From Octopus sinensis (lineage: Eukaryota), in contig NW_021826178.1 in the NCBI RefSeq assembly GCF_006345805.1, positions 1-13,239 on the forward strand: a stretch of DNA of 13,239 nt, read 5' to 3'. Shown piece by piece: positions 732-7,095 of the stretch. The stretch's first letter is position 1; each line of letters starts with the position of its first letter. The notes below the pieces were generated by a model. That model was not told the DNA's origin and did no database searches. It saw only the letters and a program-made list of their open reading frames with translations. The translations under genes and the position numbers were made by a program.

Positions 732-944
732 CTGATCTAACATGGTCATGTGCTCCACCTCAGAATGAAAGTTGTTTTCTCTTTTTAACGCCAGGTGCAG
801 GCAATTATTTCCTCCATGGTCGACAGCATTTACATTCGCACCCCTGGCTATCAGCCGCTGCATTATTCCGAGGTGACCGTCCGAAACAGCTTCAAGCAAT
901 GGTGTCCTATATTCTTTGTTCACAATTTCTAAATTCACTGAATC
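732..944 (-). CDS. Ankyrin-repeat protein, internal exon 5 of window (phase 0 to 0)
   Basis: On minus: pyrimidine tract + AAG acceptor (947-945), then 71 codons DSVNLEIVNKEYRTPLLEAVSDGHLGIMQRLIARGANVNAVDHGGNNCLHLALKRENNFHSEVEHMTMLDQ, then GTAAGT donor at 731. Contains ankyrin motifs TPLLEA and NCLHLA and continues the frame of the 3871-3907 exon. Confidence 0.88.
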
Positions 945-1375: not shown

Positions 1376-1833
1376 TATAATGAATTGGGGAAACGGAGTT
1401 CACGAGAATATGCATCACAACGACCGTTTCGACCCATCTTGCATCGGTCACTTGCGGGTGGGCTACTATACATGTTGTGTTGCATCCTCCAGTGCAGATG
1501 CATCTCATCGGGTGCCTTGTTTTAATGTAAAGATACCTCACTAAATATATTCAGTTTCACTTGACATGTTGTTGCTAGGAGCTTCTTGGATTACAACATG
1601 AGAGACAACAGCCTTCCGGCAACAACAACATTCCAAGCGAACCCGAATATATTTACAGAGGTATCTTCTTTAAAAGAAGACACCCGATGACATGCATCTG
1701 CACCGGAGGATGTATCACAACCAGTTATACAATATCCTACCTGCAAGGGACCGATGCAAGATGGATTGAAACAATCGTTGCGATGAATAAAAATTCTCAT
1801 TAACTCCATTTTCTGCTTCCCTCATTCATTATA
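1376..1833. repeat. Diverged long inverted repeat (arms ~1376-1583 and ~1610-1833, spacer ~26 nt); possibly Penelope-like pLTR-derived
   Basis: Blocks pair by eye, e.g. CCATCTTGCATCGGTC with GACCGATGCAAGATGG; CATCCTCCAGTGCAGATGCATCTCATCGGGTG with CACCCGATGACATGCATCTGCACCGGAGGATG; AAGATACCTC with GAGGTATCTT; TATAATGAAT with ATTCATTATA. The inverted repeat is directly seen; the family assignment is inference. Confidence 0.9.
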
Positions 1834-1976
1834 AACTGAACGAACACTGCAGAATACATGAAGTAGATCCAGTGTCACTTATAGCTCAACTGTGGATGAC
1901 ATGAGGTAACCGAATCAGCGAAAGATCTTTAAGTAGCATACTTCTAAATGTATACCCAAATTCCAAATATTTACAA

Positions 1977-2013: not shown

Positions 2014-2017
<4 letters not shown>

Positions 2018-3358
2018 GGGAGGATGATGCCTTGGACGGGAAGAATTACAGAGGTATCAAACTATTAGATGAAGCAATGAAAATTACTCAGGGGGTCACA
2101 GACAAAATAATTAGGATGTGTGTTAGACCAGAAGAGATGCAATTTGGTTTTGTGCCACAGCGAAGCACCTCTGATGCTATATTCCTGGTAAGGCAGCTGC
2201 AGGAGAAGTACCTAGCCAAAGATAAACCCTTGTACATGGTATTTGTTAAACATGGAGAAAGGCTTTGATAGGATCCCTCGATCCCTTATTTGCTGGTCAC
2301 TGCAAAAACTAGGGATGGACGAATGGTTGGTGAGAGCGTTACAAGCCATGTACAGGGATGCTGTCAGTAAGGTGAGGTTTGGCATCGTGTGTAGCAATCA
2401 ATTAGGGTACAAGTAGGGGTTCATCATGGATTAGTCCTCAGCTCCTTCCTGTTTATCAGAGTCCTCCAGGCAATAACAGAGGGATTTAAGATGAACTGCT
2501 TCTAGGAGATCCCCAATGCTGATGACCTTGTTATCATAGCCGAATAACTTTCAGAACTAGGTAAATTTTATGTATATCAGTAAGGACTAGAATCAAAGGA
2601 CCCTAAACTTAGTCTAACAAAAACCAGTCTTAGTAAGTAGGAAAGCGGACAATTCACAAATCCCCTTAGGAAGATGGCACTGTTCGATCTGTAGAAAAAG
2701 CGTAGGTAGGAAGTTCATAAGATGTACCCAGTGTAAGGTATGGACACATAAGTGTTGCAGCAATATCAGAGGAAGGTTAACAGGGATAATAGTTTTTCTG
2801 TGTGGAAGGTGCACAGGTACAATAAACAGCACAAATGTAGAGAAAATAGAGCTATCAATTGCCAGGTAGGTAAGCTACTGGGAGTTGATAGTTTCCGCTA
2901 TCTAGGTGGCCACGTCAGGAGTGTGGTTGGTTGTTCTTTGAGTGTAGCTGCAAGAATAAGAATAAGACGTGCAAAGTTCAGAGTAACCTTAACTCTAATG
3001 GTAACAAAGAGCGTCTCCCTGAGATTGAAAGGCAGACGTTATGATGCCTGTGTGTAAACAACTATGTTACATGTCAGTGAAACATGGGATGTGACCTCTC
3101 TGAGGACTTCCATAGGCTTGAAAGAAATGAAGCCAGAATGCCTCGCTGGATGTACAATGTCAGTGTGCATGTACGACAGAGTATAGGAGTCTTGAGAGAA
3201 AAGATGAGCATTGAAGACATCAAATAGGGTGTGCAAGAGAGACGTCTGCGTTGGTATGGTCTTGCGATGTGTATGGACATGGACAACTGTGTAAAAAGTG
3301 CCGATCTCTAACTGTGGAAGGATCCTTTGGTAAATGAAAACTGAAAGAAGCTTCATAA
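2014..3358 (+). mobile_element. Decayed, 5'-truncated non-LTR retrotransposon (RTE clade) reverse transcriptase fragment
   Basis: Motifs across shifting frames: NYRGIKLL, QFGFVPQRSTSDAIFLVRQLQEK, FDRIPR, VGVHHG..LS..LF, NADDL (YADD-derived, 2515-2529), FRYLG, SETW, RRLRWYG. Multiple stops and frameshifts. Antisense to the host gene. End coordinate approximate. Confidence 0.9.
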
Positions 3359-3406: not shown

Positions 3407-3437
<31 letters not shown>

Positions 3438-3452
3438 TGTGTGTGTGTGTGT
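3362..3452. repeat. (GT)n microsatellite
   Basis: Direct reading. Confidence 0.95.
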
Positions 3453-3582
3453 TGTGGTTCAGCAAAGCGGCTGAAAGGATAAGTGATATGCTTAAAATAA
3501 TAAAAGTACTGGGATGAATACAGTTGACCAAAAATTCAAGGTGATGCCCCAGCATGGCCGCAGTCAAATGCCTGAAACAATT
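3453..3582 (+). mobile_element. SINE 3' fragment (cephalopod-type)
   Basis: Core TGCCCCAGCATGGCCGCAGTCAAATGCCTGAAACAA (3545-3580) matches the reverse complement of 5388-5423 at 31/36 positions. It resembles a recurrent Octopus SINE tail (recollection, not searched). Confidence 0.7.
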
Positions 3583-4510: not shown

Positions 4511-4876
4511 GGATGATTCTGTATTTAGCCCAGGGTCGGAGTAAATAGAGAAACTACAAAGGAGAGAGAGTGAGGAAGAAAAAGAGAAAGAGAGAGAAAG
4601 TAGTTCTAGATGGGATGAAAGGAAGAAGAGAGAGGATTTGAACCTGTGACGTTGAGGAAATGGAGAACGAGATGAAGTAAAGAGTCCAGTCAGGCAACAA
4701 CAATAACAATTATGGTGATGATTAATTAATAAAGTAGATTACAGTGCGAAAGAGAGAAGGAAGACAATGACCCCATGGTGGGATTATGACATGAATGACT
4801 GAATGAAAAAGAAACAAACATTATTGAAAACATAAAAGAAACAGATTTGGATATTCCAGATCCAATGGGGACTTAC

Positions 4877-5031
4877 CGCTGAACTGCCACATGCAGTGGT
4901 GTGTCACCTTTGTTGTTCACGACATTGGCATCGATGCCATTGTGACCCAACAACAGCTCGGCAGTGTGCAAGTTTCCCTTATAACAGGCCCGGTGCAGCG
5001 GTGTTTGACCATCTTCATCTCGAGGATTAAC
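4877..5031 (-). CDS. Ankyrin-repeat protein, internal exon 3 of window (phase 0 to 2); not in the ORF track
   Basis: On minus: TTCTTTTCTTCATCAG acceptor, VNPRDEDGQTPLHRACYKGNLHTAELLLGHNGIDANVVNNKGDTPLHVAVQ + CG, then GTAAGT donor at 4876. Two canonical TPLH motifs. Confidence 0.93.
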
Positions 5032-5195
5032 CTGATGAAGAAAAGAATAAAAACATTAAAAATGGTGTCTGAAAGGGGAGTCGGGTGGTGAAGAATTAAA
5101 AGAAAAACTCACAGAAAAAGAGAAGAGAAGGAATGAAAATAATTAAACAGGTGGAATGATTGGGGTGGGGAGTAGGTAATGCAGATTTCTATTGT

Positions 5196-5588: not shown

Positions 5589-5660
<72 letters not shown>
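5589..5660. repeat. (TA)n microsatellite, containing the mariner TA target
   Basis: Direct reading; the mariner TIR begins immediately after TA at 5659-5660. Confidence 0.95.
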
Positions 5661-6669
5661 CGAGGGGCGTTCAATAAGTAATGCCCCTGACCCACTTCCC
5701 ATAGCAGTAGATCAACGAAACTTGGCACAGTTATTAGTCTTTTTCTACATAGGAACCACCCATAGTTACGCATTTCTCCCATCGTTTGATGCGGCTCTGG
5801 AGACCGTTTTTGTAGAAGAACCCAGCTTGGTCCTCCAACCTCAACGTGACTTCAGAAATCAAGGCTGCATCATCTGGGAAACGCTTTCCTTTCAAAAACA
5901 ACTTCATGATTGGGAAGAGGTGAAAATCAGAGGGTGCAAGGTCAGGAAAGTAGGGGGTGGGGGGAGGAGTTCATAGCCATACGCCTGTGCTTCTGATCTG
6001 GCGACAAGCGAGTTGTGGACCGGAGCGTTGTCCTGCAGGAGGAGGATGCCTTTGCTGATCTTGCCCCGCCTCTTGATTTTGATAACTTCTCTTAATTTCC
6101 TCAAAAGTGAAGCATAATAGGCTCCTGCAATTGTGGTACCCTTTGCCAGGAAATCTGTCATCACTATTCCGTCCTGGTCCCAGAAGACTGTGAGCATGAC
6201 CTTGCCAGCGGAGGGCTGCACCCTTGCCTTCTTTGGAGGAGGAGGGTCACGGTGCTTCCACTGCATTGACTGGGCTTTGGTCTCTGGATCATCGTGATGA
6301 ACCCAGGTTTCATCCTGTGTAATCAGTCTTTTGAAAAATTTTGACTCATCTTCTTGGCACATCTCCAAATTCACCCTCGAGCATTCGACGCGTTCTTGCT
6401 TCTGGAAAGGCGTGAGCAACCTGGGAATCCATCTGGCAGACACCTTTTGCATATGCAAATGGGTCATGAATGATAGTTTCCTCAGACCCGGTACTAATCT
6501 TGACCTCATGGGCTATTTGGCGAATAATTATGCGTCGATCTTCCAAAATGGCAGCCTCAACTTGACGGACAGATGCCTCATCAATGGCAGAGGGGGGCGA
6601 CCAGATCTGGGAGCTGTTTCCACAGAGTTCCGACCATGTTTGAATTCACGATGCCAGCGTTTTACAAGG
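5661..6669 (-). mobile_element. Tc1/mariner DD34D mariner element, 5'-truncated, one TIR remaining
   Basis: TA|CGAGGGGCGTTCAATAAGTAATGC terminus, similar to the CGAGGGG start of irritans-subfamily mariners such as Hsmar2. Transposase lies on minus. No second TIR was found in the window. Confidence 0.92.
5734..6668 (-). pseudogene. Mariner transposase remnant with 3 frameshifts and missing N-terminus
   Basis: Motifs KRWHREFKHGR..PRSGRP, WIPRLL (WVPHEL-like), TQDETW, QDNAPVH, YFPDLAPSD (YSPDLAPSD-like), RWEKCVTMGGSYVEKD* with TAA at 5736-5734. 34 residues separate the 2nd and 3rd catalytic D after correcting the frameshift. Confidence 0.92.
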
Positions 6670-7095
6670 GTTAATTGCAACAAATTGCTCAAAACCACAT
6701 ACCGAAAATATTAGGAATAGCAGCCAAATAGATCACTATTTCTCCTACTAAAAAAAAAGTCTCCACAAACAAACAGAATTTGTAACCCGTATATGGTAAA
6801 GAGAAAGAAAACAACGAAATCCCAGCCTATTGGATTAATTATAGACGAATCGTTTCTGGATTAGAATCGAAAGTTCAAGGAAATGAACTTTCGGTTTTAA
6901 ATCAGAAACGATTCGTCTATAATTAATCCAATAGGCTGGGATTTCGTTGTTTTCATTCTCTTTACCATATACGGGTTACAAATTCTGTTTGTTTGTGGAG
7001 ACTTTTTTTTTAGTAGGAGAAAGAGTGATCTATTTGGCTGCTATTCCTAATATTTTCGGTATGTGGTTTTGAGCAATTTGTTGCAATTAACCCTT
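6666..7095. repeat. Near-perfect fold-back palindrome: 212-bp arms (6666-6877 and 6884-7095), 6-nt loop AGGAAA
   Basis: Arms align without gaps (paired coordinates sum to 13761). I count 6 mismatches, about 97% identity. Confidence 0.97.

What the first reader, a model, noticed from the sequence alone, without database searches (positions are those of the whole stretch)
1416..1514. Variant type-I hammerhead ribozyme-like motif in each arm of the first fold-back
Seen on minus (the host pre-mRNA strand): CAC-CCGAUGA-[GAUGCAUCUGCA...UGCAAGAUGGGUC]-GAAA-C-GGUC-G-UU-GUG. This gives a 3-bp stem I, a CUGANGA-like box, a long G-C-closed stem II, GAAA, a minimal near-palindromic stem III and an NUH site. 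The other arm has the equivalent on + (1681-1782), followed by AATAAA at 1786. Both copies share the non-consensus CCGAUGA and GUU, so these may be family traits rather than decay. Known: Penelope-like pLTRs and retrozymes carry minimal hammerheads that can act as dimers. Inference: an uncatalogued variant hammerhead family. Activity is unproven and stem I is short.
Basis: partly seen in the sequence, partly recalled or inferred. Interest (0 to 1): 0.72.

Follow-up and report, generated by a model that had tools for sequence, protein, structure and literature searches.

The report
Branched-arm hammerhead in Hydra retrotransposon relic
The motif is real: it is the hammerhead (self-cutting RNA) motif at the end of an old Penelope-like jumping gene, likely of the Hydra group, with an unusually large second arm that is predicted to branch, but this copy is decayed and is likely zipped shut by its mirror-image partner in the host RNA, so it probably does not cut.

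Summary
Observation confirmed for arm A (1416-1514, minus); arm B is a decayed homologue that has lost the G10.1-C11.1 pair. The fold-back is one old insertion of two head-to-head, 5'-truncated 3' ends of a Penelope-like element (RT and GIY-YIG-type motifs fit the Hydra clade), later copied at least 29 times with its ankyrin host gene. Seven subfamilies keep a type-I hammerhead with compensatory changes in stem I (U-A/A-U/G-C) and in the palindromic loop III, and a 77-nt helix-II domain predicted to branch, which published descriptors (at most 24 nt) miss. GUU is a family trait and common in published Hydra hammerheads. CCGA (U4C) is inherited from some master copies, but most of the window's own subfamily has CUGA. 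In the host pre-mRNA the arms pair with each other (-261 kcal/mol); ten likely A-to-I edits in RNA-like contigs fit this, so the copy is probably silent. Cleavage is untested. The scan had already noted long-armed Hydra hammerheads on other DNA of this genome. Verdict: new variant of a known kind.

The parts
1376..1589 (-). Arm A: 5'-truncated 3' end (pLTR) of the element, ending at the short fixed 3' end, next to a TA-rich run
   Evidence: profile hit positions 7-235; ends compared
1416..1514 (-). Hammerhead motif A, type I (order box C, GAAA, cleavage site); 3-bp stem I; predicted cut after 1419
1505..1511 (-). Core box CCGAUGA (U4C variant)
   Evidence: state across copies
1431..1504 (-). 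Helix-II domain (74 nt here, 77-78 nt in the family), closed by G10.1-C11.1; predicted long irregular helix capped by two hairpins; 3-nt deletion and several decay changes in this copy
1419..1430 (-). GAAA, self-complementary loop III (CGGUCG here, CGAUCG in the family) and GUU cleavage triplet
1601..1976 (+). Arm B: 5'-truncated 3' end of the same element, ending at the long fixed 3' end, next to a CA run
   Evidence: profile hit positions 3-378
1681..1782 (+). Hammerhead motif B, decayed (10.1-11.1 pair lost, stem I mismatch, palindrome broken)
1786..1791 (+). AATAAA just 3' of stem I; a family feature (85-97% per column), lost in arm A; role not tested
1834..1976 (+). About 145-nt tail between the two fixed 3' ends; in full-length copies it runs on into the sequence before the ORF
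1439..1767 (-). Ten likely A-to-I editing sites on the host strand (1439, 1542, 1650, 1652, 1653, 1654, 1711, 1738, 1742, 1767), all inside the fold-back
732..930 (-). Host ankyrin-repeat exon downstream of the insertion (upstream boundary not fixed; reading checked for 725-930)
   Evidence: contig loose end at 732
4876..5040 (-). Host ankyrin-repeat exon upstream of the insertion
   Evidence: Pfam Ank_4 E 1.5e-16

Best explanation
The fold-back is two head-to-head, 5'-truncated 3' ends of an old Penelope-like retrotransposon, likely of the Hydra clade, and the motif is that element's type-I hammerhead, with a 77-nt helix-II domain predicted to branch; in active elements it would cut weakly and only as a pair, and this copy is likely silent. 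Shown: the dispersed family, two fixed 3' ends, head-to-head pairs, links to RT and endonuclease frames, compensatory changes in stem I and loop III, decay of arm B. Inferred: in a tandem element two pLTR hammerheads on one transcript pair through the palindromic loop III (A14 to U17, predicted -11.8 kcal/mol) to build helix III and cut after GUU or GUC, probably helped by the element's protein, as reported for the anole element PAc. The element's nuclease and RT likely inserted the two arms into a TA/CA run, one from each of two internal start sites about 145 nt apart. In the host pre-mRNA the complement of arm B is made first and captures arm A in a long duplex, which ADAR likely edits, so the hammerhead fold would not form.
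For: 70 and 187 exact genome-wide matches to two 21-mers, reversed controls 0. 94 arms in 63 loci: 43 short ends, 40 long, 11 other; 28 of 28 head-to-head pairs join one short and one longer end (loci fetched with the tail query have a long arm by choice). L211 reads pLTR, RT, UTR, pLTR; L205 pLTR, RT, EN; L206 RT, EN, pLTR. 15 of 30 endonuclease loci carry the same long motif downstream on the same strand. Hydra motifs: RMQWK, CxCx5C, CxxC and CxH around E and N (against the definition). 80.1% of cells paired against 30-40% when slid; 78 two-sided cells against 52.8+-5.4, 0 of 500 shuffles; stem I pair 4 UA 28, AU 18, GC 4; loop III GC 53, AU 17. All seven subfamily reconstructions close G10.1-C11.1 with P>=0.94, sense z -1.5 to -3.35 against antisense -0.06 to -1.57. 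Fold-back -261 kcal/mol, z -23.6; the hammerhead fold costs 106 kcal/mol in it. Ten A>G changes on the host strand in RNA-like contigs, in 0 of 29 genomic duplicates.
Against: No cleavage shown. Rfam score far below gathering. RNAalifold found no consensus structure on the 85 decayed copies. The two measures that count pairs or pair types did not beat the shuffles (236 and 345 of 500): the two-sided signal rests mostly on two pairs and a few subfamily events, and the branched cap has mostly one-sided changes and several pairs broken in subfamilies S3, S6, S7. The GNRA-type loop drifts in S3 (AAGA 7, ATGA 6, GTGA 4 of 22). The window's own subfamily S4 is tied to an ORF only through overlapping UTR pieces, not in one locus. 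Clade assignment is by motifs in decayed frames; Pfam and the protein search found nothing for the endonuclease piece; no tree with reference elements was built. RNA status of the runs is a guess, no DNA of the same animals was at hand, and run X4 showed none of the ten edits.
Confidence: 0.82

Rival explanations
1. The hammerhead fold is kept as a structural element, not an enzyme: the core has relaxed (U4C in two subfamilies, A9U in one, GUU in five) while helices and the branched arm are kept because the element's RT binds them.
For: Masters with U4C spread widely: S3 CG 9, TG 5, CA 3 of 18 and CG 10, TG 9, CA 1 of 22 in a second sample; S5 CG 7, CA 6, TG 1 of 16; S7 has U at position 9 in 6 of 9. 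U4C lowers in vitro activity considerably (PMC3088659). Hammerhead mutants did not affect PAc insertion in vitro (PMC11167929).
Against: The changes sit at positions where natural active variants are reported (U4C in an infectious viroid); C3, G5, A6, G8, GAAA and A15.1-U16.1 stay the majority state in all seven subfamilies, and the loop-III palindrome is kept by a two-sided change, which fits dimer cleavage.
Confidence: 0.25
2. This particular copy is an active ribozyme that cuts the ankyrin pre-mRNA after 1419 and has been kept by the host.
For: Arm A is sense to the pre-mRNA, keeps all three helices in principle and a wobble-paired palindrome (-7.6 kcal/mol); the intron is covered in RNA-like contigs; at least 29 gene copies could supply a partner in trans.
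Against: The inter-arm duplex excludes the fold and the likely edits fit the duplex; stem I is 3 bp; among duplicates the motif varies no less than the nearer flank (0.011 against 0.007) and 2 of 29 delete 18 nt of helix II.
Confidence: 0.04
3. The repeat is a non-coding retrozyme or a MITE with long terminal inverted repeats, not a piece of a coding PLE.
For: Most copies are short, non-coding and many are inverted pairs.
Against: 5' ends are variable, the two arms have unequal outer ends, no tandem monomers were seen, and long copies lead into RT and endonuclease frames.
Confidence: 0.05
4. The motif is a non-circularly permuted (SGC or CSG) hammerhead misread as type I.
For: Earlier scan notes report such forms in this genome.
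Against: The strand 5' of the box covaries with the strand 3' of the NUH site (pair 6-125), which fixes the order C, G, S = type I as defined in PMC10085705.
Confidence: 0.02

Closest known systems
Hammerheads of Hydra-clade Penelope-like elements (Craig et al. 2021, PMC8557442; passages, section 11 and File S2 read), including Hydra-1_Obim
   Same: Type I, near the 3' end, often a GUU site (10 of 26 Hydra rows), (TA)n targets, inverted 5'-truncated partner and optional tail; protein motifs RWK, CxCx5C, CxxC and CxH
   Different: All listed Hydra rows have CUGANGA, a 3-7 bp helix II with a loop of at most 10 nt and a 3-4 bp helix III; here 77-78 nt lie between the boxes, helix III is a bare palindrome, some masters carry U4C or A9U, the tail is about 145 nt in S4-S7, and the 3' UTR exceeds 1.5 kb. 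The two motif strings searched were absent from that supplement.
[quoted passage not shown]
   Same: Short helix I, palindromic helix III for dimer cleavage, G10.1-C11.1, place in the pLTR, pairs on opposite strands 100-700 bp apart
   Different: Their descriptor allows helix II of 3-7 bp, loop 3-10 nt and a fixed cuganga, so it misses this motif; no extra base between A9 and G10.1 here
PAc (Poseidon) of Anolis (Frangieh et al. 2024, PMC11167929; parts 1-2 of 4 read)
   Same: Two fixed 3' ends explained by two internal RT start sites; AT-rich targets; hammerhead in the pLTR
   Different: Other PLE clade; tail 30-40 bp against about 145 nt (about 45-50 nt in S3); ORF starts inside the PAc hammerhead but lies well downstream here
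Natural U4C hammerhead variant of a viroid (as cited in Perreault et al. 2011, PMC3088659; passages and section 8 read)
   Same: C at position 4 of the core
   Different: Here it marks whole retroelement subfamilies and arose or switched more than once on the tree; activity untested
Rfam Hammerhead_1 (RF00163)
   Same: Aligns over all 45 model positions at 1414-1517
   Different: 14.8 bits against gathering score 34; 60-nt insert in loop II

Membership tests
Type I hammerhead ribozyme | CUGANGA box | tested here: inconclusive
   Window arms CCGAUGA (U4C); canonical majority in S1, S2, S4, S6; U4C in S3, S5; A9U in S7
Type I hammerhead ribozyme | GAAA, A15.1-U16.1 pair and NUH site | tested here: met
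   (AU in 75 of 85)
Type I hammerhead ribozyme | Three helices in the order C, G, S with ends in stem I | tested here: met
   Two-sided changes in stem I pair 4 and loop III; arm A keeps the pairs, arm B does not
Type I hammerhead ribozyme | Rfam RF00163 gathering score | tested here: not met
   14.8 of 34 bits; no hammerhead hit for a GUC copy in L183
Type I hammerhead ribozyme | Site-specific self-cleavage after H17 | not testable with these tools
   Only contigs were served; they cannot show RNA ends
Type I hammerhead ribozyme | Tertiary contact between helices I and II | not tested
   none sought
Metazoan PLE minimal hammerhead (Cervera descriptor) | Helix II 3-7 bp with loop of 3-10 nt | tested here: not met
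   77-78 nt between boxes against the descriptor
Metazoan PLE minimal hammerhead (Cervera descriptor) | Palindromic helix III and short helix I | tested here: met
   CGAUCG and CAAUUG; stem I 3-6 bp
Metazoan PLE minimal hammerhead (Cervera descriptor) | Located in the pLTR of an RT and endonuclease element | tested here: met
   L211, L205, L206 and 15 of 30 endonuclease loci; for S4 itself by overlap only
Hydra-clade PLE | N-terminal RWK motif | tested here: met
   RMQWKVFFF in L211
Hydra-clade PLE | DKT in place of DKG | tested here: inconclusive
   ADMT in the one decayed copy that covers it
Hydra-clade PLE | CxCx5C linker, C-terminal endonuclease with CxxC and CxH around E and N | tested here: met
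   CSCRDxxKC in L205, L206, L211; CQLC..EE and RCxH in L151, L177, L206
Hydra-clade PLE | Insertion into (TA)n | tested here: met
   Most 3' ends abut TA, CA or related runs (seen by eye, not counted)
Hydra-clade PLE | Generally under 3 kb | tested here: not met
   L211 unit spans about 5 kb with other repeats inserted; 3' UTR over 1.5 kb in S4-S7, about 0.4 kb in S3. The paper gives this as a tendency.
Hydra-clade PLE | Placement in the Hydra clade on an RT tree | not tested
   Reference proteins were not available as stored sequences
Non-LTR retrozyme | Tandem non-coding monomers, each with a hammerhead | tested here: not met
   Head-to-head pairs and single arms, linked to ORFs
Type-SGC hammerhead | Block order S, G, C | tested here: not met
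   Order C, G, S

The most novel reading that the evidence does not exclude
In this lineage of Hydra retrotransposons the hammerhead has become a protein-gated or non-catalytic scaffold: a folded 77-nt three-way-junction domain grafted into helix II recruits the element's RT, and successful masters have repeatedly traded core bases (U4C twice, A9U once) while repairing stem I and the dimer palindrome by compensatory change. The seven subfamilies would be a natural mutational series for asking what PLE hammerheads are for.
Probability: 0.22. Interest if true: 0.7.

Novelty: new variant of a known kind. Interest (0 to 1): 0.4.

Why it matters
The role of hammerheads in Penelope-like elements is open: they cut poorly, and in the one element tested they were not needed for insertion in vitro. 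This family offers natural variants of core, cleavage triplet and stem I on one scaffold, plus a large helix-II domain that standard descriptors and Rfam miss, so counts of such ribozymes are likely too low. The locus also shows how head-to-head PLE insertions likely give the host long edited duplexes that cage their own ribozyme. The copy in the window is itself a relic.

Tried and rejected
Rfam on the whole window and on a GUC copy: no hammerhead. RNAalifold on 85 copies: no structure. Pattern scan of metagenome contigs: 0 hits, so no copies from other species were compared. Longer-protein search with the endonuclease piece: 26 candidates, none scored; Pfam none. First guess of Neptune clade dropped after reading the Hydra definition. 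First impression from 14 arms that CCGA is mere decay dropped after the dinucleotide counts. The 29 near-identical matches were dropped as independent copies because they share the flanks; C8471 (L036) is an older paralogue. No RNA holder is on record as RNA; contigs cannot show a cut site, and no listed contig bridges 1419 with 31 bases on both sides. The RNA model could not be run on the genome; it finds only the two arms in the window, by construction. Lunse et al. on PLE hammerhead variants was not held. No numbers for GUU rates were found. Earlier-finding look-ups by sequence and by nearness were empty.

Full report
Observation. A relaxed type-I pattern gives one site in the first 8 kb and none in 200 Markov controls. 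Rfam finds no hammerhead on the whole window; on 1380-1560 the best hit is Hammerhead_1 over the same bases at 14.8 bits, below its gathering score of 34. Arm B (1681-1782) is homologous, 82 of 99 bases, but has C10.1 and U11.1, an A.C mismatch in stem I and a broken palindrome. Neither arm folds better than shuffles on its own.

Setting. The window is contig C2649 of a 2.72-Gb genome, likely an octopus (inference; earlier scan notes say the same). The fold-back lies in an intron of an ankyrin-repeat gene on the minus strand. The 29 fetched near-identical matches share 2,587-3,427 bases of the first 3,400 of the window at 94-98%: they are duplicates of the host gene, not new insertions. C8471 shares the flank at 73% and is an older paralogue.

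The family. Two exact 21-mers match 70 and 187 places, reversed controls 0 (2 of the 70 are host duplicates). Since only 3 of 49 and 1 of 17 otherwise-found copies match these strings exactly, the family likely has thousands of arms; this is rough. In 63 loci, 94 arms have variable 5' ends and two fixed 3' ends (43 short, 40 long, 11 other); all 28 head-to-head pairs join a short end with a longer one (three duplicate or paralogous loci left out; loci fetched with the tail query have a long arm by choice). Ends abut TA or CA runs. This is the anatomy described for Penelope-like elements: inverted 5'-truncated partner and an optional tail (PMC8557442, passages), the tail marking two internal RT start sites (PMC11167929, parts 1-2 of 4). 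The window has the short end at 1376 and the long end at 1976; the tail is about 145 nt, against about 45-50 nt in subfamily S3 (by eye).

Parent element. Walking upstream through an AT-rich UTR reached a GIY-YIG-type endonuclease frame (L151, L147; named from recalled motifs, as Pfam gave nothing). L211 reads pLTR, RT frames, UTR, pLTR; L205 pLTR, RT, endonuclease; L206 RT, endonuclease, pLTR. Of 30 endonuclease loci, 15 carry the same long motif downstream on the same strand within the 1.5 kb held. Motifs RMQWK, CSCRDxxKC, CQLC..EE and RCxH fit the Hydra clade as defined in section 11 of PMC8557442, and by eye the frames resemble the Hydra rows printed from its supplement. No tree with references was built, and the window's own subfamily is linked to an ORF only by overlap.

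Structure. 182 profile hits reduced to 144 distinct arms; 92 covering both boxes gave a tree (bootstrap not fully settled); 88 were put in seven groups (four long-branch rows left out) and 85 aligned (three short rows left out). The distance between the boxes is 77-78 nt in every group (18 of 22 exactly 77 in a second S3 sample). Each group's reconstruction folds into a helix closed by G10.1-C11.1 (P 0.94-0.97) and capped by two hairpins, better in sense (z -1.5 to -3.35) than antisense (-0.06 to -1.57). On real copies 80.1% of cells pair against 30-40% when slid, and two-sided cells number 78 against 52.8+-5.4. The signal is concentrated: stem I pair 4 is U-A in S1-S3, A.A in the window's S4, A-U in S5-S6 and G-C in S7, and the loop-III palindrome is CGAUCG or CAAUUG. 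Against: pair and type counts do not beat shuffles (236 and 345 of 500), RNAalifold returns nothing, the structure was derived from these sequences, and the cap shows mostly one-sided changes and some broken pairs. So the type-I core is well supported and the branched cap is a prediction.

Variant bases. At positions 4-5, 101 copies read CG 24, TG 51, CA 11, TA 5, other 10, while six plain TG sites give CA 0-3 of 112-136: CA is the decay product of CG, so some masters had CCGA. By group: S3 CG 9, TG 5, CA 3 of 18 (second sample CG 10, TG 9, CA 1 of 22); S5 CG 7, CA 6, TG 1 of 16; S4 TG 15, CG 3 (two are the window's arms), CA 1, TA 1 of 20; S1, S2, S6 mostly TG; S7 has U9 in 6 of 9. The window's arms probably inherited CCGA from one template. 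U4C is reported to lower in vitro activity yet allow viroid infection (PMC3088659, passages and section 8). GUU is the state in S4 (16 of 20) and S5 (14 of 16), which were nearly all found without the GUU-bearing pattern, GUC the commonest in S3 and S7. GUU also stands in 10 of 26 Hydra rows of File S2.

This copy in its host. On the minus strand 1840-1370 folds back at -261 kcal/mol, z -23.6; forcing the hammerhead costs 106 kcal/mol there and 9.9 in arm A alone. The arms are on opposite strands, so the cis dimer of a tandem element cannot form. Among 29 duplicates the motif is no more conserved than the nearer flank and two delete 18 nt of helix II. In contigs of runs guessed to be RNA, ten T>C changes (A>G on the host strand) fall inside the fold-back and in 0 of 29 duplicates: X10 shows 10, X1 7, X3 5, X2 3, X4 0. 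Only two other listed differences were absent from all duplicates (982 G>A, 1660 G>C, X1 only). Runs X15, X17 and X19, which I take for DNA by size and even cover, show zero at the five sites listed; the other five are not listed there (three table rows in all were not shown). No DNA of the same animals was at hand, so editing is likely, not shown. It fits a duplex in vivo and a caged hammerhead.

Mechanism and comparison. Works like: a metazoan PLE hammerhead, with dimer cleavage through a palindromic helix III and low intrinsic activity (PMC4209133, parts 1-2 of 4; PMC6765202 passages), possibly protein-assisted as in PAc. Predicted dimer helices: -11.8 kcal/mol for the family palindrome, -7.6 arm A, 0.0 arm B, -7.8 S3. 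Membership: it fails the published minimal descriptor (helix II 3-7 bp, loop 3-10 nt) and Rfam gathering, and is not a retrozyme (bioRxiv 10.64898/2026.07.22.740005, part 1 of 5) nor a permuted form (PMC10085705, parts 1 and 3 of 8).

Novelty. Searches (listings only, apart from the papers named) showed no report of a branched 77-nt helix II or of U4C in PLE hammerheads; the longest arm in File S2 is about 52 nt, in a spike-moss element. Lunse et al. on PLE hammerhead variants was not held and may bear on this. The scan itself had already noted long-armed Hydra hammerheads of 51 and 85 nt on other DNA of this genome (seen after my own assignment; unchecked notes). Verdict: new variant of a known kind, in a decayed copy; interest 0.4.

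Noticed in passing
window 6666-7095: A second fold-back with 212-nt arms, 97% complementary, 6 nt apart; much younger than the first; not analysed.
   Followed up: no
window 1439-1767: Ten likely A-to-I editing sites in the fold-back, several in UAG, CAG or AAG context, seen in four of five RNA-like runs.
   Followed up: partly
G000 contigs of L002-L030; L036: The ankyrin-repeat host gene is present in at least 30 copies at 94-98% identity, mostly on small contigs, plus an older paralogue at 73%.
   Followed up: partly
L092:about 890-940; L106; L211:3050-3095 and 3415-3460: Another repeat carries a compact hammerhead with the same GACAC/GUGUU stem I and GUU site but a 22-nt helix II; it may show the state before the arm grew.
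   Followed up: partly
L046, L054, L126, L165 (subfamily S7): Core box reads CUGAAGU (A9U) in 6 of 9 copies, with a G-C at stem I pair 4 and mostly GUC.
   Followed up: partly
L205:3251-5030: An internally deleted copy in which the tail runs almost directly into the middle of RT, then the endonuclease.
   Followed up: no
L034:2294-3290: A 1-kb palindrome made of two long arms of this family, 75% alike; the longer tail is displaced by a 1.2-kb insertion.
   Followed up: partly
window about 2014-3350 (+) and about 5660-6660 (-): Stretches that look like a decayed RTE-type LINE and a mariner-type transposase; resemblance recalled, not tested.
   Followed up: no
family alignment, profile positions 1-3 (window about 1601): 21 of 94 arms reach the first three profile positions; several stop there at a TTATAG motif while others run on upstream, a possible truncation hotspot.
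   Followed up: no
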